From contig CAYLMV010000003.1 in assembly GCA_964384415.1 (NCBI GenBank), positions 6,840-70,839 of the forward strand: a DNA stretch of 64,000 nucleotides, given 5' to 3'. The position numbers and the translations under genes are program-made. Positions 17,396 to 35,636 of this stretch are shown one piece after another (within the stretch, counting starts at the first letter, position 1; each line of letters starts with the position of its first letter). The DNA comes from an uncultured Chitinophagaceae bacterium. GTDB taxonomy: Bacteria; Bacteroidota; Ignavibacteria; UBA10030; UBA8401. The notes beneath the pieces are model-generated. The model had not been told where the DNA came from, ran no database searches, and saw only the letters and a program-made list of their open reading frames with translations.

Positions 17396-17404
17396 AGTTC
17401 CCGT

Positions 17405-18617: not shown

Positions 18618-18857
18618 TTAATTTCCTCGGTCTTTGATCGCGTCCATCGGGCAAACGGAGATCGCACGCTGCACATCTTCAAGCTCTTCGTTCCCCTCCG
18701 GTTGACGATAGATGTAATAAAAACAGGCCGAGTCGTCGAACGTGAAACTGTGAATTGCATACGACATGCAGAGACCGCATCCGTTGCAGCAGTCCATCAC
18801 ATAGAATCTTCCTGGCACATTTTCGACCAGCGGTTTTGGCAACGATTCCGTCATCAT
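18618..18857 (-). CDS. Small [4Fe-4S] ferredoxin
   Basis: Contains CCNGCGLC...CP. The start is set at MMTESL after a GGAGC RBS. Confidence 0.6.
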   Translation of the reverse strand: MMTESLPKPLVENVPGRFYVMDCCNGCGLCMSYAIHSFTFDDSACFYYIYRQPEGNEELEDVQRAISVCPMDAIKDRGN

Positions 18858-18910
18858 GGGTAGCTCCATCCAATTGTGAGATTAGTAACCGTGAATTTCT
18901 TTCTCTTCCG

Positions 18911-21142
18911 TCATGCCTCTTGTTTGCGGCGAAGCATGGAAATGATGAGTCCAAGAAACAACAGTATCGCACCCGACCAGACCAAATTCATGAACGGCTT
19001 AATGCTCGCTTCAACCATCAGCACTTCTCTCGGAGACGATTGTGAGTTTGGGCGAAGCACCTCGAGAGTCACCGTCGACTGATCGGAGCCCATTTGAACA
19101 TTCATACTCACCAGTTGTATCTTCGCCCCAAGGAGCTTCGACTCCGCCGGTTGATACGTCGTCCCGCCTTGTTGATCGTACACTGCAACCGGAGTTACCG
19201 TTTCCTTCCCCTGCGATGATGAGAGCGCCAGCACGGATCCAACCTGTACTCCGCCTCCTCCCGTCATCGCCTCCATCCCGTGCTTCCCCATGTCGAATTC
19301 CACGAACTTCGTCTGCACTCCCTGTATGTCGACGGTCTCTCCCTTCTTAATCGACACTCGCTCGCCGGCTTCTCCATTCGATCCGCCCGATTGTTCGAGC
19401 GAAACCGGAGACAGGTAAAGATCCCGTGTGATGAACGATTTGATATCGGGATTCCGCATGAGTCCCTGCTCACCCATGTCGGACATCACCGGAGAGAGTC
19501 TGAACTTTGCGCCGTCCCTTTCTGCATCCACATCGAAGGCGAACTTTTTTCCCCCTACAGGCCTGTTGCCCGTGTAGGTAAGATTGTAGCCGAAAACTTG
19601 CTGCGGCGAATTGAGCGTGAGGGCAACCTGCTGTTTGTGGCCGTACTTTCCCGATGCAAGAACCCCGAGGAAAAAGAGAGCCAATCCAATGTGGGCAATT
19701 TTGCCCCCCATCCATCGCGGGTCTCCCTTCGCGGTGACATACGCCATTTCGATATTGACAAAGAGCGCGAACGATGACGCGAACCCAAACAGAAGCATCA
19801 TAATATCATTAGCGCCGAGCTTAAACATGACGGCGGCAACGACAAGAGAAGCGGCGATCCATTTCAGAGACCTGCGAAAAGCGTGCGAACCCTCCTCGTT
19901 TTCCCATCGGAGAAGAAGGCTGTAGCCGATCAAAAGAGAAATGGCCACGGCGATGGGGAGGTTCATTGTATCGTAGAACGAACCCTCGACATTGGTTTTC
20001 GAGAAAAGGGGGAGACTCGTCCCGAACAAAACCACGGCCGATGAAGCCAGCAATGCGAACGATCCGAGGCTCGCCACAAAACCGCGTGAACGATATTTAA
20101 GGGGAGCCGGGTTGAGCCGAAGCCCGCGCCATCGGCTAAAGAACACTCCGAACCCGACAATCGCGAAGACTCCGAGAAAGGCAAGCAACAGAGAATAGAC
20201 CGCAGCGCCGGGGTCTGAAAACGAGTGGACGGATGAATCGCCAAGAACACCGCTCCTGGTAAGGAATGTGCTGTAGACGACCAAGAGGAATGCAAGGATC
20301 GCGAGGACAAAGTTCGTTCGAACAAGATTTCCGGTTCGCTTCTGTATCAACATCGTGTGCACGAGCGCCATCAGGACAAGCCATGGCACCAGCGACGAGT
20401 TTTCCACCGGATCCCAACCCCAGTATCCGCCCCATCCGAGGACACCGTACGCCCAATAAGCCCCGAGCATGATACCGAGCCCGAGAATCATGCCAGCGAA
20501 GAGAACCCAGGGGAAGGCGCTGCTCAGCCACTCGGTAAAATCCTTGCGCCACAACGCCGCTACCGCAAAACTGAACGGCACTGCCGTAACCGCAAAGCCG
20601 ATGAAGAGTACCGGAGGGTGGATAACCATCCAGAAATTCTGGAGAAGAGGATTGAGGCCTTTGCCGTCAAGCGGAACTTGGCCTGCCTGCATCTGTCCGG
20701 GAAAAGAATCCCATACGGTCCTGAACGGCGATTTGAAAAGGAGAAGCAGGACAAGAAACGTCTGTATCGAAACAAAAACGGCGAGGACGTGCGCCTCGAG
20801 TTTTCTCGACTTGGTGTAGTTCAAAAGGAAGAAACTCATGATGGCGGAACAGAAAGACCAGAAGAGAAAGCTTCCCTCCTGTCCTGCGTAGAATGTCGAG
20901 ACGAGATAATAAAGGGGCAGCGAGCGGTCGCTGTAGCTCCACACATACGCGAAGGAAAAATCGTGCAGAAGAATGCTCGACATCAGCAGCGCGCATGCTG
21001 CGATAACGCTTCCCCCGCTGAGGTAGAGAGCGTTTCTTCCGAGCTTTAAACGATCATGAACGCCGGAAGCAGTCTGATAGTACGACCACACCGCTACAAG
21101 ACCGCTCGCCAACGCTACTATGAGAACTGCCGTACCCGCCAT
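18911..21142 (-). CDS. ccmF: Cytochrome c-type biogenesis protein CcmF (system I haem lyase)
   Basis: 743 aa and polytopic. It carries the WWD-type motif WGGYWGWDPVENSSL and the conserved His residues of CcmF/NrfE. Confidence 0.85.
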   Translation of the reverse strand: MAGTAVLIVALASGLVAVWSYYQTASGVHDRLKLGRNALYLSGGSVIAACALLMSSILLHDFSFAYVWSYSDRSLPLYYLVSTFYAGQEGSFLFWSFCSAIMSFFLLNYTKSRKLEAHVLAVFVSIQTFLVLLLLFKSPFRTVWDSFPGQMQAGQVPLDGKGLNPLLQNFWMVIHPPVLFIGFAVTAVPFSFAVAALWRKDFTEWLSSAFPWVLFAGMILGLGIMLGAYWAYGVLGWGGYWGWDPVENSSLVPWLVLMALVHTMLIQKRTGNLVRTNFVLAILAFLLVVYSTFLTRSGVLGDSSVHSFSDPGAAVYSLLLAFLGVFAIVGFGVFFSRWRGLRLNPAPLKYRSRGFVASLGSFALLASSAVVLFGTSLPLFSKTNVEGSFYDTMNLPIAVAISLLIGYSLLLRWENEEGSHAFRRSLKWIAASLVVAAVMFKLGANDIMMLLFGFASSFALFVNIEMAYVTAKGDPRWMGGKIAHIGLALFFLGVLASGKYGHKQQVALTLNSPQQVFGYNLTYTGNRPVGGKKFAFDVDAERDGAKFRLSPVMSDMGEQGLMRNPDIKSFITRDLYLSPVSLEQSGGSNGEAGERVSIKKGETVDIQGVQTKFVEFDMGKHGMEAMTGGGGVQVGSVLALSSSQGKETVTPVAVYDQQGGTTYQPAESKLLGAKIQLVSMNVQMGSDQSTVTLEVLRPNSQSSPREVLMVEASIKPFMNLVWSGAILLFLGLIISMLRRKQEA

Positions 21143-21163
21143 CGCTTTACTCCGACTAATACA

Positions 21164-22441
21164 CTAGAAACTTCTTTCAGTCCCACCCACGTCGATTTTT
21201 CCGTTAATATGTTTCGTCGCATCTATGATGTTGCCATTCGCGTCAACAATTCCCTGATGACAACCTCCCACGCCGCCGCATGAGCTCAGGGGCAGTGGTC
21301 CCAAATGGCCCTTCGGAGGAAGTCCATGACACGATCCGCATGCTGCTTCGCCCATCCCGCCGGTCCACATTGGAGAATAGTTGTTTCCAGTCATAACAGA
21401 GTCAACAAACATTACTTGATCTTGCGGTGATGCTCCCGCTTTTGTCACCTGCCAATTTCCGTGACAATACGTATTGCTGCACTGAGTCGCGCTGGCATTG
21501 TATGACGGATTCGGAACGAACGTGCCGGCAGCGGTGACCAGGTTCGCAAGAGTGTCGCCCATAATAACTGTCGCCGGTCCGCTGTTCAAATGGCCTGCGG
21601 CAAACACTTGGGCCGGAACGTTATGGCATTCCTGGCATTTCAATACTTTGCCGAACGTCGACCGCAAGTGTCCCTGGTGAGCGCCGACTCCTCTCAAGCT
21701 TGTGGACGAGTCGCCAGTGATACTCCTCGGAGGCGCCCAGGACGCGATGTCGTTCGCAGCTCCCGTGAAGTTACCATGACACGTGTTGCACGCTTCGGGA
21801 GATTTTTGATTTCCCTTCGCATCCACGTGGCAGCCCGAAGTCATGCAGCCGATGTTGCTTCCCGTCGGGATCCCATTGTAATTTGTGCCGTGGCATGTCT
21901 TGCATCCATCCATATTCCAATTACTCGCCATGATTTCAGCCCCGTGAAATGCCGCCGACGTCGGCTGAGTCCAACCGCTGGCGTGCGGATAAGCGTTATG
22001 GCATGTGTAGCAACTTACGCCGCTCGTGCCTCCCTGGAAATTCTGAGCATGGCAGGTCTGGCATGACTGCAGGTTGAAGCCGACTGTCTTTAACGCAACA
22101 CCATGGAAATTTGCCGCCGTCGTATCGAGCCACCCTGTCTGGTGAGGATACTGCGTATGACACTTGAAACAGCTGACACCGCTCGTTCCCCCCTGATACG
22201 TCGGTGCGTGACATTGCTGGCAATTCTTTGCGTTGAAGCTCACGCTCTTTAAATACGCGCCATGGAAATCTGTGGAGAGGCTGTCATCCCAACCTGTGCC
22301 ATGCACGGAAAGCGCCGGACCGGTGGGTGTCAAACCGTCCTTGTTCTTTAAATCACTGCACCCTGTGACCGCCAAGGCGAGCAGAAGAATGGAAGCTCCG
22401 AAGTACAAATGTGTTTTCATAGTTCGCTCATTTCTTTCCAT
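21164..22441 (-). CDS. Multihaem cytochrome c lipoprotein with three internal repeats
   Basis: Lipobox LLALAVTGCSD. At least 8 CxxCH motifs plus atypical CMTSGCH, CSNTYCH and CGGVGGCH. A ~45-aa unit (FHGAxLK...NCQQCHA...GGTSGVSCFKCH) repeats three times. An alternative start lies at 22420. Confidence 0.8.
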   Translation of the reverse strand: MERNERTMKTHLYFGASILLLALAVTGCSDLKNKDGLTPTGPALSVHGTGWDDSLSTDFHGAYLKSVSFNAKNCQQCHAPTYQGGTSGVSCFKCHTQYPHQTGWLDTTAANFHGVALKTVGFNLQSCQTCHAQNFQGGTSGVSCYTCHNAYPHASGWTQPTSAAFHGAEIMASNWNMDGCKTCHGTNYNGIPTGSNIGCMTSGCHVDAKGNQKSPEACNTCHGNFTGAANDIASWAPPRSITGDSSTSLRGVGAHQGHLRSTFGKVLKCQECHNVPAQVFAAGHLNSGPATVIMGDTLANLVTAAGTFVPNPSYNASATQCSNTYCHGNWQVTKAGASPQDQVMFVDSVMTGNNYSPMWTGGMGEAACGSCHGLPPKGHLGPLPLSSCGGVGGCHQGIVDANGNIIDATKHINGKIDVGGTERSF

Positions 22442-23645
22442 GACAGTACCCGCAGAAACCTATGCCCGCAACTCCCCCCATGGTATGAGGCTTCGCATTG
22501 GGGTCGGTATGGCACGCAAAGCATGTTGCCCCGGGATCGGTCATCCAGTTGCCGTCGACATTGGCCATGAACCCGCTTGGATGCGTCCTGGGGTTAGTAC
22601 CTTTCACGCCGTCCGGATCTACGTGGCACTTCATGCACGTCGGATCGGCTCCTTCAACATCATGACAAGATTGACAACTCTCAATTTCTCTTCGTGCGAG
22701 GCGGGCATGCTCGCCGCCGCCAGACCCGACACCGATGGTCACAAATCCGGCCGCTTCGTGTGATGTAGGAATTACTCCGCCCAGGGCCGCACTGCCGTTC
22801 TGGTGGCAGTCGTTGCAGAACGCCTGTTCGTGATGGCACACCTGGCAATCGGCAGCGTGTCCCCGCGCTTCGATGCCATGGGTGAAGCGGAAATTCATGT
22901 CGTGCACTGCCTGTCCCTTGAGCGCCTGCGACTTGTCGTTCCCCATTGTGCGCGGGGAGATCATTCCGATCATCTCTTTGCTCGACAGCGCCGTGAGATT
23001 CGATCCGTCGTGGCACTGCGCGCAATAGTTCTCACTGTGGCACATCGAACACTGAGAATCCATGGCGTTCAACCTAGCAAGCGTCGAATGCCCCTTTAGC
23101 CAGTTGCCCTGGTTATGAGAGGCCGGCCGTAACGTCGCAAGGTTGGTATGGCAGGTCTCGCATTGATTGGATTCCTTCGTGTTGTTGTGGCACGTATTGC
23201 AGGTGGCCATTGCCGGCATATTGGCGGCCGTCGCATAGTCAACTTTATCGACACCGGCATGGCACGTCGCGCATTCCATCTTCCCGTCCGTCACGTGTTT
23301 CTTATGATTGAACCGAACCTCGCGGGCTTCGCGCGGGAACGGCACGGGATTCTTTTCGTCGGAATGGCAATAGCCGCACGTCTTGGCCACTTGCTCCTCG
23401 TGGCAAGTCTGGCAGACGGCATGTCCCGGAATCATCTTGTCGGAAGACGATTCGCTCGTCGCCGACTCTGCATGACACGTAGCGCACTCCACGCCCAACT
23501 CGGCAACATGCTTTTGGTGAGAAAACTTTATCACTTTATCCTGATCGACCGATTTCTGAGTGCCATCTGCCGACCAGCTCCCGCCCAGGGCAACGATGAA
23601 CGTCGCCGCAAGAAACAATCCAAACGTAAGAATTTTGATTCTCAT
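22428..23645 (-). CDS. Periplasmic multihaem cytochrome c (14 CxxCH)
   Basis: Signal peptide followed by 14 CxxCH motifs counted in the 405-aa translation. Confidence 0.85.
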   Translation of the reverse strand: MRIKILTFGLFLAATFIVALGGSWSADGTQKSVDQDKVIKFSHQKHVAELGVECATCHAESATSESSSDKMIPGHAVCQTCHEEQVAKTCGYCHSDEKNPVPFPREAREVRFNHKKHVTDGKMECATCHAGVDKVDYATAANMPAMATCNTCHNNTKESNQCETCHTNLATLRPASHNQGNWLKGHSTLARLNAMDSQCSMCHSENYCAQCHDGSNLTALSSKEMIGMISPRTMGNDKSQALKGQAVHDMNFRFTHGIEARGHAADCQVCHHEQAFCNDCHQNGSAALGGVIPTSHEAAGFVTIGVGSGGGEHARLARREIESCQSCHDVEGADPTCMKCHVDPDGVKGTNPRTHPSGFMANVDGNWMTDPGATCFACHTDPNAKPHTMGGVAGIGFCGYCHGKK

Positions 23646-23654
23646 AGAGTTTCC

Positions 23655-24938
23655 TTAAAACCAGCTGAGATGATCACTGAACCAGTAGTTTACTTTTGCG
23701 AAGACCCGCACGTCGTTTGAGTAGAGCGGATTGTGCATCCATTGCAGCTGCAAATCGGTCGACAAGAGCGGAGACGGACGGTATGTCGCTCCGATACTGC
23801 CGTTGATAACCGTATTCTTCGGAGCGTTGTCGGACAACTGGTAGCTTGCGTACCCGAACCCGAGGTTTGGTACTATTTGCCGGTTCATCATTGGATACAC
23901 TGCTTGCACGGAAACACCGTTGAGATCCCCGGCATATCCGAAATTCTTTGTGTACGAGATGTTGACAATATCGTATGTGCCGCCGACCGTCAACCGCTGA
24001 CTGTTGTCGTCGGTGTACTGAACATCCGCAAAACGCGCGAAAGTGCGGAAGAGCGGAGAGAATTCATATTCAAGTCCTCCTTCAACCTCCTGCGTACTGC
24101 TCGTGTTGAAGACCGAGAAGATCGAGTTATAGGCAACGCGCGGCTCGCGGAAAAGATAGTCGACCGTGGCGGTCAGCGAAGTCATGATGCCGGCTCGGGC
24201 TTCCGCTTGCGCGCGGGAGATTCGTTCGAAGTTGAAATCGTAATCGGACCTCCCGTAGAGATCGATTTTATTAAGGAGACTGTAGCGGGCGTCGAAGCTT
24301 GCGTATTCTTCTTCGTCGGGAGAATAGGCGATGACCACCACATAGGGATTGAACAGCGAGTCGGCGCGGACCGCCGTGAACGGCTCCGGTTTCCGCGTCC
24401 GGTTCATGAAGCTGAGTCCGACGACAGCATTCTCCGCAGGCTCGTAGGTCAGTTGTCCGCCGTAGAGAGAGTTGTCCGCAAAATCTCTTTTCAAGATGAT
24501 ATCCCGAGACTGGATGACATTGTATCCGCCGTATGCGGTCAGCCCCAGCCGTTTGTCGAAGAGCATCACCTTTGCCACACCGCCATCCATCAATCCATTG
24601 CCCACCCCCGCAAAAACGTATTGGCGGCCCACGGTAACATCCGCAACGTCGGCGATCCCTCGCGCTCCGACGGTCAATGATGAGAGACGCAGCTCCGGAT
24701 CCGTGCCGATGGTGGTACCGAAATCTTTGGAGTACTGGAAATTTGTGTTGAAGGCAAAATGCGGCTGAGCAACATTGAACTGGACGTTTTCAAAACCTCG
24801 CATGTAATTCTGGTTGTCCAGGTCGGCGCTTCGCCCCTGCCATCCATAGAACGACGTCGTGAATCGCCCCGACATGAACTGCGCCGAGGCCGTCGCTGCC
24901 ATGAGAAGAATACAGAAGAGTAGTATTGTATATTTCAT
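23655..24938 (-). CDS. Outer-membrane beta-barrel protein (porin-like)
   Basis: Signal peptide MKYTILLFCILLMAATASAQ, alternating amphipathic beta-strands rich in Y/G/N, and a C-terminal aromatic residue (...HLSWF). Confidence 0.65.
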   Translation of the reverse strand: MKYTILLFCILLMAATASAQFMSGRFTTSFYGWQGRSADLDNQNYMRGFENVQFNVAQPHFAFNTNFQYSKDFGTTIGTDPELRLSSLTVGARGIADVADVTVGRQYVFAGVGNGLMDGGVAKVMLFDKRLGLTAYGGYNVIQSRDIILKRDFADNSLYGGQLTYEPAENAVVGLSFMNRTRKPEPFTAVRADSLFNPYVVVIAYSPDEEEYASFDARYSLLNKIDLYGRSDYDFNFERISRAQAEARAGIMTSLTATVDYLFREPRVAYNSIFSVFNTSSTQEVEGGLEYEFSPLFRTFARFADVQYTDDNSQRLTVGGTYDIVNISYTKNFGYAGDLNGVSVQAVYPMMNRQIVPNLGFGYASYQLSDNAPKNTVINGSIGATYRPSPLLSTDLQLQWMHNPLYSNDVRVFAKVNYWFSDHLSWF

Positions 24939-25078
24939 AGCGACAATTTCCTTTGCTCGTGTGAGAACAATAAAGACAAGGATTGTGCCATTTGTCCCCG
25001 AAACATTTCTAAACGTTTTGCATGGTTTCTTTCAAGCATATGAAACTTCCTTCCAAGTATCAAGAACAATACTACCCC

Positions 25079-25096
25079 ATTCCATAAAATAGGAAT
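25079..25096. promoter_or_regulatory. Palindromic motif ATTCC-ataaaata-GGAAT upstream of the porin/cytochrome operon
   Basis: Read directly, ~140 bp upstream of the porin start. A near-identical TTCC-N9-GGAAT element lies at 33038-33056. Confidence 0.35.
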
Positions 25097-25230
25097 CCCG
25101 CCTCATCAGGATGATGAAGCGGGATTGGTTGCGGTCTGGAGGCTTTGCCGAGCCTCGTGGGATAGACGCCAGCATGTAGGGTGCCGGCGGGGGAAGTATC
25201 GCTCCCGTGAGGAAGCGAATACTGTCGTTG

Positions 25231-28592: not shown

Positions 28593-29044
28593 GATTTTTT
28601 CGATATAAAGACATCTCCCCCTTGAACGTTGACTTTGTACTCTTCAAGCGGCCGGGGAGGCGGACCGGAAACGTTCCTGCCGTTGAAATCGTACTTCCCG
28701 TTGTGACAGGCGCACCAGATCAGCCCGTAGTCTTTGCGGTATTGTACCGTACAATCGAGGTGTGTGCATGTTGCCGAGAATGCTCTCAGCTCATCCTTCG
28801 CGGTGCGCAGAAGAATCACCGGTTTCGTTCCAAACTTGATGATCGTTCCGCTGTCCTTGGGGATGTCGGTCAGCTTGCCGGCCTTCACGCTGGAAACTTC
28901 GGCTTCTGCCTGGGTCGGCGGCTTCAGGTATGCGAGAACGGGATAAAGGATGGCGCCAATCCAGGCCAGGAGACTTCCGCCGAGGACGAACTTCAGGAAA
29001 TCTCTCTTATTCTGTTTCAGGTCAACAGGAGGATGTTCGGTCAT
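28589..29044 (-). CDS. Rieske [2Fe-2S] iron-sulfur protein
   Basis: CTHLDC...CACHNG Rieske boxes and an N-terminal TM/Tat-like anchor. Confidence 0.85.
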
Positions 29045-29080
29045 GTCCCAGCCGCAATAATGATGGGAGTTCGTGAAGGA

Positions 29081-30565
29081 TCAGGAACCGCTGTGGCAAT
29101 CGCTGCAATTCATCTGCTTCCACGCATCGCCGACGTCGACAGGGTGCTTGTACTCGATGCCGGTGAGAGATATTCTAAGGCTGTCTTTCTCGAGCTTCTG
29201 AGCAAGAATCACGTGGCAGGTATTGCAGTCTCTCGACAGGACTTTCCCGTCGTCGCCGACATGCTTGCCGTCGTGACAGCGAAAACATCCCGCAGAATAC
29301 AAGTGACCGATGTTGTTCGGATAATGTTTCCACGAAACATTCATCTCGGGGAAGAAATTCTCGCCGTAGATTCGTTTCACGTGTTCGATGGCTGTATCAA
29401 TGCCGGCCGCCATCGTGCGGGAAATCTCGGGATAGCGCTGCGCGTAGAAATCGCGGATGGTGAAGCCGATGCTGTCCATCGCCCCCGCTTCTGTACCGTA
29501 CGGCCTCGTCAGCGCGTCGACGGCCGTCGCCTTGATGGAAGGAAGTGCGGGATCAATCCAACCCAGCGTCATTGCCTGGTTCACCGATTCGTTTGGCGGA
29601 TGATAGATGTGCGTCGGCCGGTTGTGGCAGTCGATGCAATCCATCCGCCGTTTTTCGCCTGCGGCGATCTGTGCGTCGGTCGCAGAGCCGTCGTTCATCG
29701 TATAGGTCACAACAGTCCCGTCGGGCCGCTTCGACTGGACCCACGGAATCACCTGGCGCTGCGAATCAATCGCAACGTAGGTGATTTTGTTGCTGATGTT
29801 CATGTGCCAATGAATGCCGGAGGTCGGACCCGTCTCGCTGTTTCCTCCGCCGATCTTCATCAGGAGCGAAATCCACCATTGAGTATTCTTTTCATCGGAA
29901 AGGAAATAGTTCTTGACCACCTGTTTTTCCGAATAAAATTGTTTCGGCCAGTGGCATCGTTCACAGGTCTCCTGAGCCGGACGAAGGTTTCGTACCGGCG
30001 TTTCGATGGGACGCGAATACTTATGGAAGATCACCGAATAGACCTGATATGCTCCGGACAATTTCGATTTGACGTACCAGTCGGCACCGGAGCCGACGTG
30101 ACATTCAGCGCAAGAGACTCTCGCATGGGGAGAGTAAAGATAAGCGGTGTATTCGGGCTTCATAACGCTGTGACAAACCTCGCCGCAGAACTGAACCGAC
30201 TCCGTGAATTCATACGCTTGATAGCTTCCAAACGCGGAACACATGAGGAGCACCAGGACAAGAGATCCGAAAAAGAGGAACATCGACCGCTGATGCGGGT
30301 CGTTAAGATCGATGCGGGGAAATCGGTTCGCCGTCGTTTGAACCCGTCTCCGCTCGAGAATGACGCCGACAATAGCGATCGCCAATCCCATAAGAAGAAA
30401 GCCGGGAAGAATGACGAAAGCTATGATTCCCATGTACGGGCTTTGGCGTCCGGCGAAGGCTTCCAGGAGAAAGAGGAACAGGATCAGCCCAAAGCTGACG
30501 AGCGCAATTCCTGCGCCGGCAAAACTCGTAGGGTTAAAAAAAGATTTTGGAACAAGCCTTTTCAT
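29081..30565 (-). CDS. Inner-membrane NapC/NirT-type multihaem cytochrome (7 CxxCH, 3 N-terminal TM helices; ImcH-like architecture)
   Basis: 494 aa with three hydrophobic helices in the first ~110 aa and then 7 CxxCH motifs. It lies 36 bp upstream of the Rieske gene. Confidence 0.7.
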   Translation of the reverse strand: MKRLVPKSFFNPTSFAGAGIALVSFGLILFLFLLEAFAGRQSPYMGIIAFVILPGFLLMGLAIAIVGVILERRRVQTTANRFPRIDLNDPHQRSMFLFFGSLVLVLLMCSAFGSYQAYEFTESVQFCGEVCHSVMKPEYTAYLYSPHARVSCAECHVGSGADWYVKSKLSGAYQVYSVIFHKYSRPIETPVRNLRPAQETCERCHWPKQFYSEKQVVKNYFLSDEKNTQWWISLLMKIGGGNSETGPTSGIHWHMNISNKITYVAIDSQRQVIPWVQSKRPDGTVVTYTMNDGSATDAQIAAGEKRRMDCIDCHNRPTHIYHPPNESVNQAMTLGWIDPALPSIKATAVDALTRPYGTEAGAMDSIGFTIRDFYAQRYPEISRTMAAGIDTAIEHVKRIYGENFFPEMNVSWKHYPNNIGHLYSAGCFRCHDGKHVGDDGKVLSRDCNTCHVILAQKLEKDSLRISLTGIEYKHPVDVGDAWKQMNCSDCHSGS

Positions 30566-30642
30566 CTGTGCTGGATATTACCGTTAATGCAACAGAGATG
30601 CAACGGGAATTAAGAAGTGAGAGTTAGGAATTATGAAACAGG

Positions 30643-30718
30643 GTTGTTGTCAGTTGTCAGTTGTCAGTTGTTAGTTTTTGGTTGTTGGTTGTTCATTGTT
30701 GATTGTTCATTGTTGATC
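30643..30718. repeat. Tandem repeat tract: (GTTGTCA)x3-4, GGTTGTT x2 and a 14-bp direct duplication GTTCATTGTTGAT(T/C) overlapping the CbcL-like stop codon
   Basis: Read directly: gttgtcagttgtcagttgtcagttgttagtttttggttgttggttgttcattgttgattgttcattgttgatcc. Confidence 0.7.
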
Positions 30719-32881
30719 CTTCTGCGTCGACCGGTCCCGATTAATGTCTTCCATCAACTTTCGCACTTCCTCCGCCTTGATCCGCTGCAATTCCAGCGGG
30801 TGTTCGTCGTGCATTTCTTCCTCTGTGATCGTCCCTTTGAAGAAGGCAAGGTTGATCGGATACACATCCGGATTGAAAATCACAAAATAGAAGTGCCATA
30901 TAATAATAGAGAGCGTCGCGAGCCAGGCTTCATAATAATGGACGGTGCCTGCAACATCCCACCAGAGCTTGCCTATAATTCCAAGAAATCTGTTGTCAAA
31001 CCAGAGAATGAAGCCCGTCGCTCCCATCACGATCGTCCCCCACACCAGCGCCCAGTACTCGCTCTTCTCCACATAGCTGAACCGGTCGAACTGCGGTCTG
31101 ACCTTGCTCAATCCGATATTGTACTTCGCAACTGCGATGGCGTCGTGAAGGTCTTTCAATTTCGGCAGTAAGTCATGGACGAGCTGTTTTCCCCTGGGGA
31201 CAAACAGCACATAATAGATGTGGTAAAGACCCGCCGCGATCAGGACCAGGCCGGCGGCGCGATGAAGGAGGCTTCGAATGCCGAATACCGCGGGGCTGAG
31301 CGAGCGGATCGGGCCGACCCACCACGCATCCGGGAACTTCAGCATGAAGCCTGTTATCACGAGCGTCGTGAAGCTGATGATCAACGTGCCATGTTGCAGC
31401 CGTTCGCTCAACGTCATCCGGACATACAGTGAATGGCCGAGTTCTTCTTCATAGAGCGTTCCCCGGCGTACTCGCAGCTTCCTTTTGGATTTCTTTACGA
31501 AGTCCAGGGCATTGTGAATGAACATTCCGCCGATCGTGATGACGATGAGGAGGATATATCCGGATGTTACATAATAGAGCATATCGTTGTCTTTGGCTGA
31601 GACGATGATATGCACCGAGCCCTTCGTGAAATTCTCGTTCGCTCCCGGGTGACATTTTCCGCATGTCACTGCAAGGTTGGCCTTATTCACCCTCGATTTG
31701 GGATTGCTCGACGGCAGGATATCATGGATCCCGTGACAACTCGCGCAGTTGGCGACTTCCACGCTTCCGGCTTTCGTCGCAAGACCGTGATAGCTATCGT
31801 CAAAACTTTTTCCGCGCTCCGCTGCAAGGCCGAATTTTTCGTTCAGCCGCACCGAGTTGTGGCACGGCGAACAGACCTGGGCAGATACATGAAGCCTTGA
31901 AACGGGCGAGTTCGGGTCCTTGGGCGCGAGAATCTTGTGCTCTCCGTGGCAATCGGTGCACACGGGCGCGTCTTTATTGCCGGCGAAGAACGCAGAGCCG
32001 TGAATGCTTCCTCTGTATTCCGTTGCAATCGAAGCATGACATTTCGCGCATGTGTTGGGAATATTCAGCCTGTTCACCCGCGATGTCGGGTCTCCCCCCT
32101 TCTTCATCTCGTGGCTCCCGTGGCAATCGACGCAATTGGCCGCTCTTCCATTCCCGCCCTTCAGGGCAACGCCGTGCACGCTTTGTTCATACGACAGGAC
32201 GAAGCTCGCTGTGGGGGCATCGGCCGGCGTCTGTTTGTTCTTCACATGACAGGTGATGCATACCTGCTCCTGCGCGATCTTCAGCTGCGCGGAATCGGTC
32301 CCCGCTTTGACTGCGGTGATATTCTTGGAATGGCAGGCAACGCATGTCGGGGCGTTGAGGTTTCCGGCGAAAAGAGATTTTCCATGAGCCGACGTCAGGT
32401 ATTTCTCTTTCTCAGCCGTGTGGCATTGGCCGCAGCTCTGCACAACGTTTGAAGAATTGAATTTTGTGCCGGGCGTTTTCGGGGACTGGACGTCGTGTTT
32501 TCCGTGACACTCCTTGCACATCTGGCTCTCGTTCCTGCCCGCCTGCAGAAGCAGCGTACTATGGAATGGATGCTTCGGTTCTACATTCTTATGGCATGTT
32601 TCGCACTGGACGGGAGTGATATGTTCCTTGTGCGGCACATTCCCGGGATCAAAACCCGTGTGGCAGGCGACGCAGACCAGTTTCTTGTGCGTCGAATGAC
32701 TCAGAACTTCATCGTTCACGAACAATGAAACAGTCTTTCCGTTGCGCTCGGTAGACAATGTGCTGTCGGAGTGGCAGGCTAAACACTCTTCTTTCGTCTG
32801 CGATCTCAGCAGCGAGGACGAAGCAAGGAGTAGGAGAAAGAGAATCAGAGATTGGAAGAAAAGAGTTCGGGTCTTAAGCAT
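30707..32881 (-). CDS. Fusion of a multihaem cytochrome c (13 CxxCH) with a C-terminal dihaem cytochrome b-type membrane domain (CbcL-like)
   Basis: 724 aa. A signal peptide is followed by 13 CxxCH motifs. The C-terminal ~270 aa has 5 TM helices with conserved His in TM1, TM2, TM3 and TM5, an FdnI/HydC-like arrangement. Confidence 0.75.
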   Translation of the reverse strand: MLKTRTLFFQSLILFLLLLASSSLLRSQTKEECLACHSDSTLSTERNGKTVSLFVNDEVLSHSTHKKLVCVACHTGFDPGNVPHKEHITPVQCETCHKNVEPKHPFHSTLLLQAGRNESQMCKECHGKHDVQSPKTPGTKFNSSNVVQSCGQCHTAEKEKYLTSAHGKSLFAGNLNAPTCVACHSKNITAVKAGTDSAQLKIAQEQVCITCHVKNKQTPADAPTASFVLSYEQSVHGVALKGGNGRAANCVDCHGSHEMKKGGDPTSRVNRLNIPNTCAKCHASIATEYRGSIHGSAFFAGNKDAPVCTDCHGEHKILAPKDPNSPVSRLHVSAQVCSPCHNSVRLNEKFGLAAERGKSFDDSYHGLATKAGSVEVANCASCHGIHDILPSSNPKSRVNKANLAVTCGKCHPGANENFTKGSVHIIVSAKDNDMLYYVTSGYILLIVITIGGMFIHNALDFVKKSKRKLRVRRGTLYEEELGHSLYVRMTLSERLQHGTLIISFTTLVITGFMLKFPDAWWVGPIRSLSPAVFGIRSLLHRAAGLVLIAAGLYHIYYVLFVPRGKQLVHDLLPKLKDLHDAIAVAKYNIGLSKVRPQFDRFSYVEKSEYWALVWGTIVMGATGFILWFDNRFLGIIGKLWWDVAGTVHYYEAWLATLSIIIWHFYFVIFNPDVYPINLAFFKGTITEEEMHDEHPLELQRIKAEEVRKLMEDINRDRSTQKDQQ

Positions 32882-33179: not shown

Positions 33180-34106
33180 ATGGATCGCAGATCATTTCTT
33201 CTTCGGGCCGGGGGAGTTGCACTTCTTGCCGGCACTCGCACTTCGAAAGCCAGTCTCAAATGGGTGGGGGAGAAATTGTCCGAGGACAAAGCGATGGCGG
33301 GTTATGACCTTGTTGCAGTAAAGGGAGGCGAGCCCGAGGTCATGTTCCAGAATGGAATTCAGGCCATGGGGGGGATGAGAGCGTTCGTCAAAAAAGGGCA
33401 GAAAGTTGTGATCAAGCCGAACATCGGATGGGATGTGTCCCCCGAACGCGGCGGAAACACAAATCCGAAACTTGTTGCTGAAATTGTGAAGCAATGCCGC
33501 GATGCGGGAGCAAAAGAAATTGTTGTCTTTGATCACACGTGCGATGATTGGCAGCGGACGTACAAAAACAGCGGAATATCTTCCGCGGTCTCGGATGCAG
33601 GCGGGAAAATGGCTCCGGGCAATACGGAAGGATATTTCCAGGAGGTTACGATAGCGGGGGCAAAGAACCTGACGAAAGCAAAAGTCCACGAGGTCATTCT
33701 CAGCTCCGATGTCTTCATCAACATCCCCGTCCTAAAGAATCACAACTCCGCCACGCTCACGATGTCTATGAAGAACCTGATGGGCGTAGTATGGGATCGC
33801 CGCGATTGGCATGCCAACGATCTGCACCAATGCATCGCCGACTTCCCCCTTTATCGGAAGCCGGACCTGAACGTGCTGGACGCTTACTACGTCATGACAC
33901 GAAACGGGCCTCGCGGCGTTTCGCAAGCCGACGTGATAACGATGAAAACTCAACTCATCTCCACGGACCTCGTAGCGCTTGATACTGCCGGCGCAAAGCT
34001 TTTCGGCCTTGACCCTCAGACGATTCGTTACATCCAGATTGCCGCCGAGCAGAAAATAGGCCGTGCCGATCTTGATCATCTCAACATCAAACGTATCTCT
34101 CTCTGA
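33180..34106 (+). CDS. DUF362 domain protein with Tat signal peptide
   Basis: A twin-arginine motif (MDRRSFLLRAGGVALLAG) followed by DUF362-like ferredoxin-associated domain features. Confidence 0.6.
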   Translation: MDRRSFLLRAGGVALLAGTRTSKASLKWVGEKLSEDKAMAGYDLVAVKGGEPEVMFQNGIQAMGGMRAFVKKGQKVVIKPNIGWDVSPERGGNTNPKLVAEIVKQCRDAGAKEIVVFDHTCDDWQRTYKNSGISSAVSDAGGKMAPGNTEGYFQEVTIAGAKNLTKAKVHEVILSSDVFINIPVLKNHNSATLTMSMKNLMGVVWDRRDWHANDLHQCIADFPLYRKPDLNVLDAYYVMTRNGPRGVSQADVITMKTQLISTDLVALDTAGAKLFGLDPQTIRYIQIAAEQKIGRADLDHLNIKRISL

Positions 34107-34109
34107 CCT

Positions 34110-35636
34110 GTGCGTCATCTCAGAACGATAAGAGTGAGCGTCGCGTCGGTAGTCTTCATACTCGCGGCGCTCTTTTTTTTGGATTTCATCGGCGCCATCC
34201 CGCCGCGGATCATCTCCGCCCTCCTCGCCTTCCAAATGGGCCCGTCGGTTCTCTCCGTAATCGGCGCGCGCAGCATCGCGTTGTTCGGTTTGCTTTTCGT
34301 GATAGGGACGACGCTGCTCATGGGGCGTGTGTATTGTTCACACCTTTGTCCGCTGGGTACGCTTCAGGATATTTTCATTTGGACCGCAAAGAAAAAGTAT
34401 ACGCACCGCCGCTACCCTTTTAGCAAGCCCGCGTACCTCATTCACTACGCACTCACCGCCATCATCGTCGGATGCGCAATCGGAGGGAGCATGGTGCTGC
34501 TGAATCTGTTTGAACCGTTCAGCAACTTTGGAAGAATTTCTACCGATCTTGCCCGTCCCCTCGTCATCCTGCTCAATAACGCCATTGCGTCTGTATTGTC
34601 GAGGAATCAGGTGTATTTGTTCTACGTAGTTCCGCTCGACGGACTCGCTATTCCCGTCATTATTGCGTCGGCAGTCTTTCTCGGGGGCTTGTACTTGCTG
34701 AGCTTCAAATACGGACGCTTCTTCTGCAATACGATGTGTCCCGTCGGAGGGATTCTGGGCCTTTTCTCTCGTGTTTCCTTCCTCCATATCACTATCAATC
34801 ATAAAGAATGCATCGATTGCGGTCTTTGCGAGAGGGTCTGCCGCGCGCGCTGCATTGACGCCAAGGACCGGAAGATTGATTTCGCGGCCTGTGTCGGATG
34901 CTTCGATTGCATTGCTTCCTGCCCGAATGAAGGCATGACGTACAGCGTGCGCTGGAATAAGACTACCCATCCTGAACCACTGAATGCCGGGAGACGAAAA
35001 GTCATGCTCGGGGCTGGGGCCGGAATGATGCTTTTATTGAAAGCTCCGCCTCCGATCTCTGAGATGAGCGTTGGAAATAGAACTCCGGTTGTACCCCCGG
35101 GCGCAAAGAGCATCGAGCGATTCACACACCATTGCACGGCATGTCATCTCTGCATAAGCTCATGCCCATCGCACGTCCTGCAGCCATCGTTCTTCGAGTT
35201 CGGCCTCGCAGGCATCATGCAGCCGAGGATGGACTATTCCGTCAACTATTGCACGTACGATTGCACTCTCTGCGGACAAGTGTGCCCCACCGGCGCCATC
35301 GCACAGCTCTCGCAGGCCGAAAAGAAACTGGTACAAATCGGAAAAGCGCATTTCACAAAAGAAGACTGCATCGTCGAAACGAAGAAGACCGACTGCGGAG
35401 CTTGCTCGGAGCACTGTCCAACGAAAGCTGTCCACATGATTCCCTATGGGAAGCTCTTCCTCCCGGAAGTTGACAATGAGTACTGCGTCGGATGCGGCGC
35501 GTGCGAGCATGCCTGTCCGACAAAACCGCGGAAAGCCATCTCAGTGCAATCGAATGTGATCCACGCCGTGGCAAAGAAGAGAGACGACGTTAAACTCCAG
35601 ATTCCCGCAGAAACCCCGCAAGATTTCCCGTTTTAA
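34110..35636 (+). CDS. Membrane-bound polyferredoxin, NapH/MauN/RdxA family ([4Fe-4S] x4)
   Basis: 508 aa. TM helices carry CSHLCP/CNTMCP motifs. Four CxxCxxCxxxCP clusters follow (CIDCGLCERVC, CVGCFDCIASCP, CTACHLCISSCP, CTLCGQVCP, CGACSEHCP, CVGCGACEHACP). Confidence 0.7.
   Translation: MRHLRTIRVSVASVVFILAALFFLDFIGAIPPRIISALLAFQMGPSVLSVIGARSIALFGLLFVIGTTLLMGRVYCSHLCPLGTLQDIFIWTAKKKYTHRRYPFSKPAYLIHYALTAIIVGCAIGGSMVLLNLFEPFSNFGRISTDLARPLVILLNNAIASVLSRNQVYLFYVVPLDGLAIPVIIASAVFLGGLYLLSFKYGRFFCNTMCPVGGILGLFSRVSFLHITINHKECIDCGLCERVCRARCIDAKDRKIDFAACVGCFDCIASCPNEGMTYSVRWNKTTHPEPLNAGRRKVMLGAGAGMMLLLKAPPPISEMSVGNRTPVVPPGAKSIERFTHHCTACHLCISSCPSHVLQPSFFEFGLAGIMQPRMDYSVNYCTYDCTLCGQVCPTGAIAQLSQAEKKLVQIGKAHFTKEDCIVETKKTDCGACSEHCPTKAVHMIPYGKLFLPEVDNEYCVGCGACEHACPTKPRKAISVQSNVIHAVAKKRDDVKLQIPAETPQDFPF

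What the first reader, a model, noticed from the sequence alone, without database searches (positions are those of the whole stretch)
18618..35636. Candidate extracellular electron transfer conduit: cytochrome-biogenesis, porin, periplasmic and inner-membrane multihaem cytochrome supercluster
About 14 kb of co-oriented minus-strand genes encode a ferredoxin and CcmF haem lyase, a triplicated-repeat lipoprotein cytochrome, a 14-haem cytochrome, an outer-membrane beta-barrel and a tetrahaem shuttle-like cytochrome. They continue with a Rieske/cyt b operon carrying an 11-haem and a 7-haem membrane cytochrome, and a CbcL-like 13-haem/cytochrome-b fusion. A divergent Tat-DUF362/NapH-like polyferredoxin pair sits next to the block. 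Together these cover every compartment needed to move electrons from the quinone pool to the cell surface, the logic of the Mtr/Pcc systems of Shewanella and Geobacter. The component proteins have architectures unlike MtrCAB. No terminal reductase signature was found (no NrfA CxxCK, no HAO or NosZ), which favours an EET or metal-reduction role. More than 60 CxxCH motifs were counted directly in the translations.
Basis: partly seen in the sequence, partly recalled or inferred. Interest (0 to 1): 0.75.

Follow-up and report, generated by a model that had tools for sequence, protein, structure and literature searches.

The report
Porin-cytochrome extracellular electron transfer gene cluster
An uncultured Bacteroidota (Ignavibacteria-like) bacterium carries a 14-kb gene block that most likely carries respiratory electrons from the inner membrane out to the cell surface; the cluster is real and complete, but it is a new example of a system already described from genomes, not a new kind.

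Summary
Window 21164-32881 (minus strand) encodes six c-type cytochromes with 56 CxxCH motifs and 4 atypical sites. The other 39 ORFs of the window carry one CxxCH. The block also encodes a Rieske/cytochrome b pair and a 427-aa outer-membrane protein modelled as a plug-less barrel of about 22 strands.

The barrel, the 14-haem cytochrome and the lipoprotein cytochrome with a CX4CH site match the porin-cytochrome (Pcc) cluster published for Ignavibacterium album (IALB_1839/1838/1837). The "7-haem membrane cytochrome" meets every published ImcH criterion. The 13-haem/cytochrome-b fusion fits the CbcL/MtoC/MtrH family.

Gene order CbcL-ImcH-Rieske-cyt b-11-haem-tetrahaem-porin-14-haem-lipoprotein cytochrome is kept in relatives down to about 50% porin identity. 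The porin/14-haem pair is kept in every locus examined. No catalytic reductase was found anywhere in the 64 kb.

The extracellular electron transfer (EET) reading is therefore supported in silico. Direction and substrate of electron flow remain untested.

Two flanking modules are not shown to belong. The CcmF-like/ferredoxin pair sits in a neighbouring conserved block that also exists without any pcc genes. The DUF362/polyferredoxin pair is seen only in close relatives.

Verdict: new member of a known kind, moderate interest. The Rieske/b6-type complex inside the cluster is absent from cultured Ignavibacteria and is the most interesting part.

The parts
30707..32881 (-). CbcL/MtoC/MtrH-like inner-membrane quinol oxidoreductase: signal peptide, 13 CxxCH, C-terminal HydC/FdnI-type cytochrome b domain
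   Evidence: Pfam Ni_hydr_CYTB E=4.7e-13 at residues 488-671, plus multihaem families. TIGR01583 formate-DH gamma E=2e-9. 13 CxxCH and about 5 hydrophobic helices after residue 437. Conserved upstream of the ImcH-like gene in L006-L008.
29081..30565 (-). ImcH-like inner-membrane heptahaem cytochrome (494 aa)
   Evidence: Three TM helices (20-38, 47-65, 95-113), then CGEVCH (CX3CH) at residue 127, then six CxxCH. NapC/NirT Pfam hit E=3e-9. Matches the ImcH definition. Conserved in L006-L008 with the same 6+1 motif count.
28589..29044 (-). Rieske [2Fe-2S] subunit with N-terminal TM anchor
   Evidence: PF00355 E=3e-12. CTHLDC...CACH boxes at residue 93. b6f-type PetC is the best NCBIfam hit, below its cut-off.
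27513..28592 (-). Cytochrome b, b6-type with the subunit-IV-like C-terminus fused
   Evidence: PF00033 E=2e-50 and PF00032. His91/105 and His192/207 present, PEWY at residue 281. NCBIfam cytochrome b6 scores 241 bits and ExtP 213 bits, both below their cut-offs.
26047..27525 (-). 11-haem cytochrome c with C-terminal membrane anchor; candidate cytochrome c subunit of the Rieske/b complex
   Evidence: 11 CxxCH, TM helix at 463-481. Its start overlaps the cyt b gene by 13 nt. Homologous to the 9-haem protein that follows the split cyt b in L009: 33% identity, E=2e-60, including the anchor.
25231..25767 (-). Periplasmic tetrahaem cytochrome of the c554 family; candidate shuttle
   Evidence: PF13435 E=1e-20. 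Signal peptide and 4 CxxCH. Found immediately upstream of the porin gene in L006, L007, L008 and L010.
25094..25126 (-). Terminator-like hairpin (15-bp stem plus T run) between the tetrahaem gene and the porin gene
   Evidence: Strongest terminator-like site in 18-37 kb; sequence read. Function not tested.
23655..24938 (-). Pcc-type outer-membrane beta-barrel (427 aa, about 22 strands, no plug)
22428..23645 (-). 14-haem cytochrome (405 aa), candidate wire inserted in the barrel
   Evidence: 14 CxxCH, all invariant in 46 homologues. 11 invariant and 2 near-invariant extra His plus invariant Met146. Always directly downstream of the porin gene. 40% identical to the L009 partner.
21164..22420 (-). 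Outer-membrane lipoprotein cytochrome (418 aa; 8 CxxCH + 2 CX4CH + 1 CX5CH) with a triplicated dihaem module
   Evidence: Lipobox LAVTGC. GSu_C4xC__C2xCH domain. Repeats. Core conserved in L006, L007, L008, L010 and L012, with the CxxT[YF]CH site invariant.
18911..21142 (-). CcmF/NrfE-family haem lyase-like protein (743 aa); adjacent, membership of the cluster not established
   Evidence: PF01578 + CcmF_C. TIGR00353 scores 263 bits, below its 569 cut-off. Thousands of homologues. Same downstream synteny without any pcc genes in L011. Near cytochromes in L006 and L012.
18618..18869 (-). Small Fer4_13 ferredoxin paired with the CcmF-like gene; adjacent, role unknown
   Evidence: PF13370 E=7e-12. 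The pair recurs in L006 and L012 and is absent in L011.
33180..34106 (+). Tat-signal DUF362 protein, divergent neighbour; link to the conduit unproven
   Evidence: PF04015 E=3e-51. RRSFL twin-arginine motif. No solved relative. Present in L001 and L006 only.
34110..35636 (+). NapH-like membrane polyferredoxin (4 TM, several 4Fe-4S motifs), divergent neighbour; link unproven
   Evidence: Fer4_5 twice plus dicluster domains. NapH/MauN family E=1e-19, below its cut-off. TM helices. Its single CxxCH lies in an Fe-S region.
35707..36144 (-). Degenerate receiver-domain protein, possible cluster-associated regulator
   Evidence: Weak PF00072 hit. 35% identical (E=2e-20) to the gene directly upstream of the cbcL-like gene in L010, which follows a sigma-54 activator.

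Best explanation
The block 21164-32881 encodes a porin-cytochrome (Pcc-type) extracellular electron transfer pathway.

Proposed route:
1. Menaquinol is oxidised at the inner membrane by one of three alternative modules: a CbcL-like 13-haem/cytochrome-b fusion, an ImcH-like heptahaem protein, or a Rieske/cytochrome-b6-type complex whose cytochrome c subunit is a membrane-anchored 11-haem protein.
2. Electrons pass to a soluble tetrahaem c554-family cytochrome in the periplasm.
3. They enter a 14-haem cytochrome threaded through a plug-less outer-membrane barrel of about 22 strands.
4. They leave through a surface lipoprotein cytochrome with up to 11 haems to an insoluble or extracellular acceptor: Fe(III)/Mn(IV) minerals, humics, an electrode or a partner cell.

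Shown here: gene content, motifs, family assignments, the barrel fold prediction and conserved synteny.

Inferred: localisation, complex formation, the order of carriers, outward direction, and the acceptor.
For: - Haem-motif density is far above background.
- Pfam and NCBIfam assignments for every component.
- The ImcH criteria are all met: 3 TM, CX3CH next to the TM region, six CX2CH, about 495 aa, NapC/NirT region.
- CbcL-type architecture is present.
- The Rieske boxes, four cytochrome b His ligands and the PEWY Qo motif are intact.
- The porin plus exactly-14-haem pair is found in six loci spanning deep divergence; the porin HMM E-value for the L009 porin (P0186) is 5e-47.
- The full gene order is kept at about 50% porin identity.
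- All 14 haem sites of the wire, and enough conserved distal ligands for six-coordinate haems, are conserved. That argues for a wire rather than an enzyme.
- The lipoprotein cytochrome has a lipobox and a conserved core.
- No catalytic reductase is present in the 64 kb, and there is no CxxCK motif.
- The published I. album pcc cluster has the same architecture: porin, 400-aa 14-haem protein, outer-membrane cytochrome with an atypical motif, periplasmic cytochrome.
- Ignavibacteria carrying such clusters are enriched on anodes and in Fe(III)-reducing settings.
Against: - There are no experimental data for this organism or for any member of this porin/14-haem family.
- I. album carries the published counterpart, yet was reported unable to grow on Fe(III) or Mn(IV) oxides.
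- The AF2 model of the 14-haem protein is poor (pLDDT 56). Co-folding could not be run, so insertion into the barrel is untested.
- Direct sequence comparison with IALB_1837-1840, GSU3259 (ImcH), GSU0274 (CbcL) or OmbB/OmaB/OmcB was impossible, because the reference sequences could not be retrieved.
- A Rieske centre is normally higher in potential than typical bis-His multihaem wires. Its place in an outward chain is therefore not self-evident.
- A terminator-like hairpin separates the inner-membrane/periplasmic genes from the outer-membrane genes.
- The rest of the genome, including terminal oxidases and reductases encoded elsewhere, is unseen.
Confidence: 0.75

Rival explanations
1. The hardware is the same conduit, but electrons flow inward. 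Extracellular Fe(II), a cathode or a syntrophic partner donates electrons through the lipoprotein cytochrome, the 14-haem/porin pair and the tetrahaem carrier. The Rieske/cytochrome b complex then runs in reverse to reduce quinone, or electrons go downhill to an oxidase or nitrate reductase encoded elsewhere.
For: - CbcL/MtoC/MtrH homologues occur in both Fe(III) reducers and Fe(II) oxidisers.
- A Rieske/b complex is the module used for uphill electron flow in known iron oxidisers. This rests on established knowledge of the Acidithiobacillus petI system, not on a test here.
- A relatively high-potential Rieske centre fits an Fe(II) donor better than a low-potential wire does (inference).
- I. 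album, which carries the related pcc cluster, does not reduce Fe(III)/Mn(IV) oxides.
Against: - ImcH homologues have so far been found only in Fe(III) reducers and are interpreted as quinol oxidases.
- The flanking genes (PFOR, acetyl-CoA hydrolase/transferase, alanine dehydrogenase, glycolysis) look organotrophic.
- No carbon-fixation genes are seen in the window.
- Related Ignavibacteria MAGs were judged iron reducers because they lack autotrophy genes.
Confidence: 0.15
2. The cluster is a respiratory chain for a soluble or colloidal acceptor that crosses the outer membrane through the barrel. On this reading the barrel is a substrate channel, as proposed for Geobacter ExtI in the extHIJKLMNOPQS selenite/tellurite cluster, and reduction happens in the periplasm on the multihaem cytochromes.
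For: - The Geobacter ext cluster combines a porin-like protein, a Rieske protein (ExtO), a cytochrome b (ExtP), 10- and 12-haem cytochromes and a lipoprotein cytochrome.
- The window's cytochrome b scores 213 bits on the ExtP model.
Against: - The ExtP score is below the model's cut-off of 290.
- There is no rhodanese (ExtH) and no selenocysteine cytochrome (ExtKL) in the window.
- The barrel shows no similarity to phosphate-type porins. It models as a 22-strand barrel, much wider than a solute channel.
- The invariant pairing with a 14-haem protein is the signature of cytochrome-in-barrel systems.
Confidence: 0.07
3. The block is several unrelated respiratory modules that happen to be adjacent. 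On this reading the Rieske/b/11-haem complex is the cell's general complex III, and the ImcH- and CbcL-like proteins serve periplasmic reductases encoded elsewhere. Only the porin/14-haem/lipoprotein triplet would be an outer-membrane system.
For: - A terminator-like hairpin splits the block.
- L010 has the porin module with the tetrahaem and a CbcL-like gene, but no Rieske/b or ImcH-like gene between them.
- I. album and M. roseus have Pcc clusters but no Rieske/b complex.
Against: - The same order, ImcH-like, Rieske, cyt b, multihaem c, tetrahaem, porin, is kept in the window, L006, L007 and L008.
- A Rieske/b/multihaem set sits next to the porin in the distant L009 as well.
- Genes are co-oriented with short or overlapping junctions.
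Confidence: 0.1

Closest known systems
Ignavibacterium album pcc cluster IALB_1837-1840 (Shi, Fredrickson & Zachara 2014, PMC4245776)
   Same: [quoted passage not shown] In both it is followed by a roughly 400-aa periplasmic cytochrome with 14 haem motifs and an outer-membrane cytochrome carrying an atypical CXnCH motif, and a periplasmic cytochrome gene lies next to the porin.
   Different: Identity could not be measured, because the I. album sequences were not retrievable. The I. album genome paper reports no Rieske/cytochrome b complex, whereas here one sits inside the cluster. The window's outer-membrane cytochrome has its first dihaem module triplicated.
Geobacter sulfurreducens Pcc complexes (OmbB-OmaB-OmcB, ExtABCD)
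   Same: The three-part logic is the same: barrel, periplasm-side multihaem cytochrome, surface lipoprotein multihaem cytochrome. The barrel is smaller than MtrB. The outer cytochrome carries the Geobacter CxxxxCH/CxxCH domain.
   Different: The inner partner has 14 haems rather than 8. Shi et al. place the Ignavibacterium proteins outside the five Geobacter-centred phylogenetic groups. Here the quinol oxidases are encoded in the same block, whereas imcH is monocistronic in Geobacter.
ImcH (GSU3259) family of inner-membrane quinol oxidases
   Same: 494 aa, three N-terminal TM helices, CX3CH as the first haem motif next to the TM region, six CX2CH, and a NapC/NirT-like region.
   Different: It is encoded directly upstream of, and co-oriented with, a Rieske/cyt b operon and next to a pcc cluster. 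No mtrAB/mtoAB genes were reported next to imcH homologues. There is no functional evidence here.
CbcL/MtoC/MtrH family
   Same: An N-terminal periplasmic multihaem c domain is fused to a HydC/FdnI-type dihaem cytochrome b membrane domain. Length and haem number fall within the published ranges of 416-1034 aa and 3-23 haems.
   Different: 13 haems, against 9 in G. sulfurreducens CbcL (the figure of 9 is from my own knowledge). Relatives carry a second paralogue with 19 haems.
Geobacter extHIJKLMNOPQS cluster (ExtO Rieske, ExtP/ExtQ cytochrome b, ExtM/ExtN multihaem cytochromes, ExtI porin-like, ExtS lipoprotein cytochrome)
   Same: This is the only characterised precedent I found for a Rieske/cytochrome b pair embedded among multihaem cytochromes, a porin-like protein and a lipoprotein cytochrome. 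The window's cytochrome b is nearest to b6 and ExtP.
   Different: The ExtP model's cut-off is not reached. There is no rhodanese or selenoprotein. Cytochrome b is fused with its subunit-IV part. The barrel is not phosphate-porin-like. The ext cluster is linked to selenite/tellurite reduction.
Shewanella MtrCAB
   Different: There is no MtrB_PioB Pfam hit. The model has about 22 strands; from my own knowledge MtrB has 26. The inner partner has 14 haems rather than 10, and DmsE/MtrA-family models score far below their cut-offs. The outer cytochrome hits only the MtrC/MtrF domain II/IV model, below its cut-off.

Membership tests
Pcc porin-cytochrome cluster (Shi et al. 2014) | Porin-like outer-membrane beta-barrel smaller than MtrB | tested here: met
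Pcc porin-cytochrome cluster (Shi et al. 2014) | Adjacent gene for a periplasmic multihaem c-type cytochrome | tested here: met
   The 14-CxxCH protein with a Sec signal starts 9 nt downstream of the porin gene. The pair is conserved in six loci.
Pcc porin-cytochrome cluster (Shi et al. 2014) | Adjacent gene for an outer-membrane (lipoprotein) multihaem cytochrome | tested here: met
   Lipobox LAVTGC; 8 CxxCH + 2 CX4CH + 1 CX5CH. Conserved core in five other loci. Surface exposure itself was not tested.
Pcc porin-cytochrome cluster (Shi et al. 2014) | Sequence homology to reference proteins (IALB_1837-1839, or OmbB/OmaB/OmcB) | not testable with these tools
   Reference sequences could not be obtained. 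The AFDB library was unavailable, homologue lists showed only MAG proteins, and cluster look-ups gave no organism names.
Pcc porin-cytochrome cluster (Shi et al. 2014) | The three proteins form a complex that moves electrons across the outer membrane | not testable with these tools
   Needs multimer co-folding with haems, or biochemistry.
ImcH family (Levar 2014; Zhong & Shi 2018) | Three N-terminal transmembrane helices | tested here: met
   Hydropathy peaks at 20-38, 47-65 and 95-113. This is a simple Kyte-Doolittle scan, not a trained predictor.
ImcH family (Levar 2014; Zhong & Shi 2018) | Atypical CX3CH as the first haem motif next to the TM region, followed by about six CX2CH | tested here: met
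   CGEVCH at residue 127, then CxxCH at 152, 201, 310, 427, 447 and 487. The same 6+1 pattern is present in L006-L008.
ImcH family (Levar 2014; Zhong & Shi 2018) | NapC/NirT-like region; length about 495-519 aa | tested here: met
   PF03264 E=3e-9 at residues 97-185. NrfH model E=1e-12. Length 494 aa.
ImcH family (Levar 2014; Zhong & Shi 2018) | Detectable sequence identity (at least about 31%) to GSU3259 | not testable with these tools
CbcL/MtoC/MtrH family | N-terminal multihaem c domain (3-23 CX2CH) fused to a HydC/FdnI-type cytochrome b domain | tested here: met
   13 CxxCH. PF01292 E=4.7e-13. TIGR01583 and TIGR02125 hits.
CbcL/MtoC/MtrH family | About six TM helices with conserved His ligands for b haems | tested here: inconclusive
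   The crude hydropathy scan finds five helices after the haem domain. His residues are present in those helices. No alignment to reference members was possible.
Rieske/cytochrome b (bc-type) complex | Rieske CxH...CxxH cluster-binding boxes | tested here: met
   CTHLDC...CACH at residue 93. PF00355.
Rieske/cytochrome b (bc-type) complex | Four His haem ligands in helices B and D, and a PEWY Qo-site motif | tested here: met
   His91/105 and His192/207; PEWY at residue 281. PF00033 and PF00032.
Rieske/cytochrome b (bc-type) complex | Canonical monohaem cytochrome c1 or cytochrome f subunit | tested here: not met
   The subunit gene overlapping cyt b encodes an 11-haem protein with a C-terminal anchor. 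This is a multihaem variant, as in Geobacter ExtN/ExtM.
MtrCAB | MtrB/PioB-family barrel and MtrA/DmsE-family decahaem | tested here: not met
   No PF11854 or any other Pfam hit for the barrel. The DmsE family model (TIGR03508) is not hit by the 14-haem protein and scores at most 54 bits, against a 192 cut-off, on the other cytochromes.
Catalytic multihaem reductases (NrfA, HAO/octahaem) | CxxCK or an open-coordination catalytic haem; a family-level HMM match | tested here: not met
   No CxxCK motif. Only a 60-residue haem-packing similarity of the 11-haem protein to NrfA. The 14-haem protein has conserved distal ligands for all haems.
CcmF/NrfE haem lyase | WWD domain with flanking periplasmic His; CcmF_C domain | tested here: met
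   PF01578 + PF16327. WGGYWGWDPVEN with HPP upstream and ALVH downstream. The whole-protein NCBIfam score is below the family cut-off, 263 against 569.

The most novel reading that the evidence does not exclude
In this lineage a Rieske/cytochrome b6-type complex with an 11-haem cytochrome c subunit is a dedicated entry point into an extracellular electron transfer chain. It is encoded between ImcH-like and Pcc genes. Together with the ImcH- and CbcL-like proteins, it gives the cell three alternative quinol oxidases matched to acceptor potential. Q-cycle proton translocation would then be coupled to mineral or electrode respiration, which is not known for Geobacter or Shewanella EET and is absent from the cultured Ignavibacteria.
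Probability: 0.25. Interest if true: 0.6.

Novelty: new member of a known kind. Interest (0 to 1): 0.35.

Why it matters
It puts a complete quinone-to-surface electron pathway in one contiguous block of an uncultured Bacteroidota/Ignavibacteria-like lineage. The porin family is widespread in metagenomes: 416 clusters at 50% identity. That strengthens the case that such organisms take part in iron, manganese and humic redox cycling and in anode biofilms. It also gives a compact set of genes to express heterologously. The embedded Rieske/b6-type complex with a multihaem subunit is a testable case of a bc-type proton-translocating complex serving extracellular respiration.

Tried and rejected
What led nowhere:
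- **Direct sequence link to I. album, Geobacter or Melioribacter reference proteins.** The genome-collection scan returned one close MAG only. The two homologue searches list only the best 120 hits, all unnamed or MAG proteins. Cluster look-ups gave no organism names. The AFDB fold library was not installed.
- **AF2 model of the 14-haem cytochrome.** pLDDT was 56, with only the first 150 or so residues confident, so no fold search was run on it.
- **PDB sequence searches.** Nothing for the barrel, the lipoprotein cytochrome or DUF362. Only c7/ActA-like segments for the 14-haem protein, and a short NrfA haem-packing segment for the 11-haem protein.
- **Sigma-70 promoter scan.** No enrichment: 11 sites against 11.6 expected. 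It is not informative for this phylum.

What I considered and rejected:
- **A hidden nitrite, sulfite or hydroxylamine enzyme.** Rejected on the absence of CxxCK or HAO signatures and on the conserved distal ligands.
- **The CcmF-like gene as a dedicated lyase for the CX4CH/CX5CH sites.** Weakened. L007, L008 and L010 have CX4CH cytochromes without an adjacent CcmF, and L011 keeps CcmF with the downstream housekeeping genes and no cytochromes. It is not excluded, because L012 again has CcmF-ferredoxin about 2 kb from CX4CH cytochromes.

Full report
**Where the window comes from.** The barrel protein is 100% identical to a protein on ENA metagenome contig ERZ27245399:k141_2421 (67.7 kb), and the gene order there is the same as in the window. 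Named homologues come from "Bacteroidota bacterium" and "Ignavibacteriales bacterium" MAGs. The closest genome in the species collection is a Bacteroidota MAG at 83% porin identity. A T9SS sorting domain elsewhere in the window fits that phylum.

ORF listing, translation and Pfam/NCBIfam scans confirm the minus-strand series:
- ferredoxin, 18618-18869
- CcmF/NrfE-like protein, 18911-21142
- lipoprotein cytochrome, 21164-22420
- 14-haem cytochrome, 22428-23645
- 427-aa protein with no family hit, 23655-24938
- c554-family tetrahaem cytochrome, 25231-25767
- 11-haem cytochrome with a C-terminal anchor, 26047-27525
- cytochrome b, 27513-28592
- Rieske protein, 28589-29044
- 494-aa NapC/NirT-like cytochrome, 29081-30565
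- 13-haem/cytochrome b fusion, 30707-32881

The divergent Tat-DUF362 and NapH-like polyferredoxin genes lie at 33180-35636. The six cytochromes hold 56 CxxCH motifs in 2,711 residues. The other 39 ORFs of the window hold one in 14,805 residues. There are also four atypical sites: CX3CH in the 494-aa protein, and two CX4CH and one CX5CH in the lipoprotein cytochrome. The total is therefore 60 candidate haem sites, not "more than 60 CxxCH". The triplicated repeat is real: three dihaem modules of 53-55 residues.

**Synteny is the strongest evidence.** I examined the window's own contig, a relative at 74% porin identity (L006), two at 51-53% (L007 and L008; L007 is an Ignavibacteriales MAG), and two more distant members (L009 and L010; the L009 porin P0186 has HMM E=5e-47). 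In every one the gene directly after the barrel gene encodes a 395-431-aa cytochrome with exactly 14 CxxCH. Across 46 homologues all 14 motifs are invariant. So are 11 further His, with 2 more nearly invariant, plus Met146. That is enough distal ligands for every haem to be six-coordinate, which suggests a wire rather than an enzyme; the step from conserved ligands to six-coordination is my inference.

A lipoprotein cytochrome with an invariant CxxT[YF]CH (CX4CH) site follows in five of the six loci. In L009 the extracellular partner appears instead to be a 717-aa cytochrome carrying a T9SS sorting domain. The order CbcL-like, ImcH-like, Rieske, cyt b, 11-haem, tetrahaem, porin, 14-haem, lipoprotein cytochrome is kept in the window, L006, L007 and L008. 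L009 keeps Rieske, a split cyt b and a homologous 9-haem anchored subunit next to the porin.

**What is already known.** Shi et al. (2014) described a pcc cluster in Ignavibacterium album. [quoted passage not shown] The architecture of window 21164-25767 is the same.

Levar et al. (2014) and Zhong & Shi (2018) define ImcH by four features: three N-terminal TM helices, a CX3CH motif next to them, six CX2CH motifs, and a length of 495-519 residues with a NapC/NirT-like region. They list ImcH and CbcL homologues in Ignavibacteriae. The window's 494-aa protein meets each feature. It is best called ImcH-like rather than a subunit of the Rieske/b complex.

The 13-haem/cytochrome b fusion fits the CbcL/MtoC/MtrH description. 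Pcc-like clusters in Ignavibacteria MAGs have been reported from anode biofilms, iron-rich hot springs and aquifers.

**The Rieske/cytochrome b complex.** It looks functional. The Rieske boxes are complete, the four haem-ligand His are present and the PEWY Qo motif is intact. The cytochrome b is b6-like with a fused subunit-IV part. Its nearest named relatives are cytochrome b6 and Geobacter ExtP, both below their model cut-offs. The gene that overlaps its 3' end encodes an 11-haem protein with a C-terminal anchor, in the position of cytochrome c1 or f.

The genome papers for I. album and Melioribacter roseus state that those organisms have ACIII and no Rieske/b or bc1 complex. This module inside a Pcc cluster is therefore not represented in the cultured Ignavibacteria. 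A precedent exists in the Geobacter extHIJKLMNOPQS cluster, which combines ExtO Rieske, ExtP cytochrome b, 10- and 12-haem cytochromes, a porin-like protein and a lipoprotein cytochrome.

**The flanks.** The CcmF-like protein has the WWD motif and the CcmF_C domain, and thousands of homologues in the same phylum. In L011 it keeps the downstream genes seen in the window (alanine dehydrogenase, acetyl-CoA hydrolase/transferase, response regulator, PFOR, dihydroorotate dehydrogenase), with no cytochrome or porin genes upstream. L007, L008 and L010 have CX4CH cytochromes but no adjacent CcmF. I therefore treat CcmF/ferredoxin as part of a neighbouring conserved block. One caveat: the CcmF-Fer4_13 pair recurs in L006 and L012, and in L012 it again lies about 2 kb from CX4CH cytochromes.

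The DUF362/polyferredoxin pair is seen only in the window's contig and L006. It has no solved relative and its role is unexplained. A degenerate receiver-domain gene at 35707-36144 is homologous to the gene directly upstream of the cbcL-like gene in L010. It may be the cluster's regulator.

**No catalytic reductase.** Pfam scans of all large ORFs in the window found central metabolism, proteases, molybdenum-cofactor biosynthesis (MoeA, MoaC/MoaB) and unknown proteins. They found no nitrite, sulfite, nitrous oxide, hydroxylamine or molybdopterin oxidoreductase. None of the cytochromes has a CxxCK motif. The weak NrfA similarity of the 11-haem protein covers only a 60-residue haem-packing segment.

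**Mechanism and confidence.** The best explanation is a Pcc-type conduit fed by up to three quinol-oxidising modules through a tetrahaem shuttle (confidence 0.75). Gene content, motifs, family assignments, the barrel fold prediction and synteny are shown. Localisation, complex formation, the order of carriers, direction and acceptor are inferred.

Points against:
- There is no experimental evidence.
- I. album was reported unable to grow on Fe(III)/Mn(IV) oxides.
- The model of the 14-haem protein is poor.
- Reference sequences could not be compared directly.
- It is unclear on redox-potential grounds how a Rieske centre feeds a multihaem wire.

The main rival keeps the same hardware but reverses the flow, as iron oxidation or electron uptake.

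**Verdict.** The finding is real and the EET interpretation is supported as far as sequence analysis can go. It belongs to a kind already described from genomes: the Ignavibacterium-type Pcc, with ImcH and CbcL homologues. I rate it a new member of a known kind and give it moderate interest, 0.35. Its distinctive features are the embedded Rieske/b6-type complex with an 11-haem subunit and the expanded lipoprotein cytochrome.

Noticed in passing
window 25094-25126 (-): Strong terminator-like hairpin (15-bp stem, T run) directly after the tetrahaem c554-like gene and 155 nt before the porin gene. It could split the block into two transcripts, or boost the shuttle transcript by attenuation.
   Followed up: partly
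window 18618-21142 (-); L006 13458-15985; L012 7001-9525: A stand-alone CcmF-like gene is repeatedly followed by a small Fer4_13 ferredoxin, with no other ccm genes nearby. A ferredoxin partner for a CcmF-type haem lyase is not something I know to be described.
   Followed up: partly
window 21164-22420 (-); L006 12522-13436; L007 12526-13344; L008 12489-13301; L010 12613-13548; L012 3764-4840: The N-terminal dihaem module of the lipoprotein cytochrome varies in copy number: three in the window, two in L012, one in the others. The last haem site is CGGVGGCH (CX5CH) in the window, where five relatives have CxxCH, i.e. a 3-residue insertion inside the motif.
   Followed up: yes
L009 7529-9682: In a distant member of the porin family, the gene next to the porin encodes a 717-aa cytochrome (7 CxxCH + 1 CX3CH) with a T9SS C-terminal sorting domain. 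This suggests some relatives export their extracellular cytochrome by type IX secretion rather than as a lipoprotein.
   Followed up: partly
window 33180-35636 (+): A Tat-signal DUF362 protein is paired with a 4-TM NapH-like polyferredoxin, divergent from the cytochrome block. It is conserved in L006, has no solved relative, and its function is unexplained.
   Followed up: partly
window 35707-36144 (-); L010 675-1088: A small degenerate receiver-domain protein is homologous (35% identity, E=2e-20) to the gene just upstream of the cbcL-like gene in L010, where it follows a sigma-54-dependent response regulator. It is a possible cluster regulator.
   Followed up: partly
window 51227-58688 (-): A lower-GC stretch (0.46 against about 0.53 elsewhere) holds three large ORFs (641, 920 and 606 aa) with no Pfam hit, next to a protein with a T9SS sorting domain.
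   Followed up: no
window 38097-41529 (-): A group of genes: a MauE/DoxX membrane protein, two ORFs with no Pfam hit, a peptidase C39 domain protein and a redoxin. It may be a peptide-maturation or disulfide system and is not obviously linked to the cytochromes.
   Followed up: no
window 36710-37933 and 41702-42610 (-): Molybdenum-cofactor biosynthesis genes (MoeA; a MoaC-MoaB fusion) lie near the cluster, but no molybdoenzyme is encoded in the window.
   Followed up: partly
window 28622-30613 (+) and 16088-17464 (+): Very long antisense ORFs (663 and 458 aa) lie opposite the ImcH-like/Rieske genes and the acetyl-CoA hydrolase gene. No gene is called on that strand on the source contig (L001), so they are presumably spurious.
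   Followed up: no
L007 1-4690; L008 1-4737: Relatives at about 50% porin identity carry two tandem CbcL-like genes. The second has 19 CxxCH and 919-929 aa, where the window has one CbcL-like gene with 13 CxxCH.
   Followed up: partly
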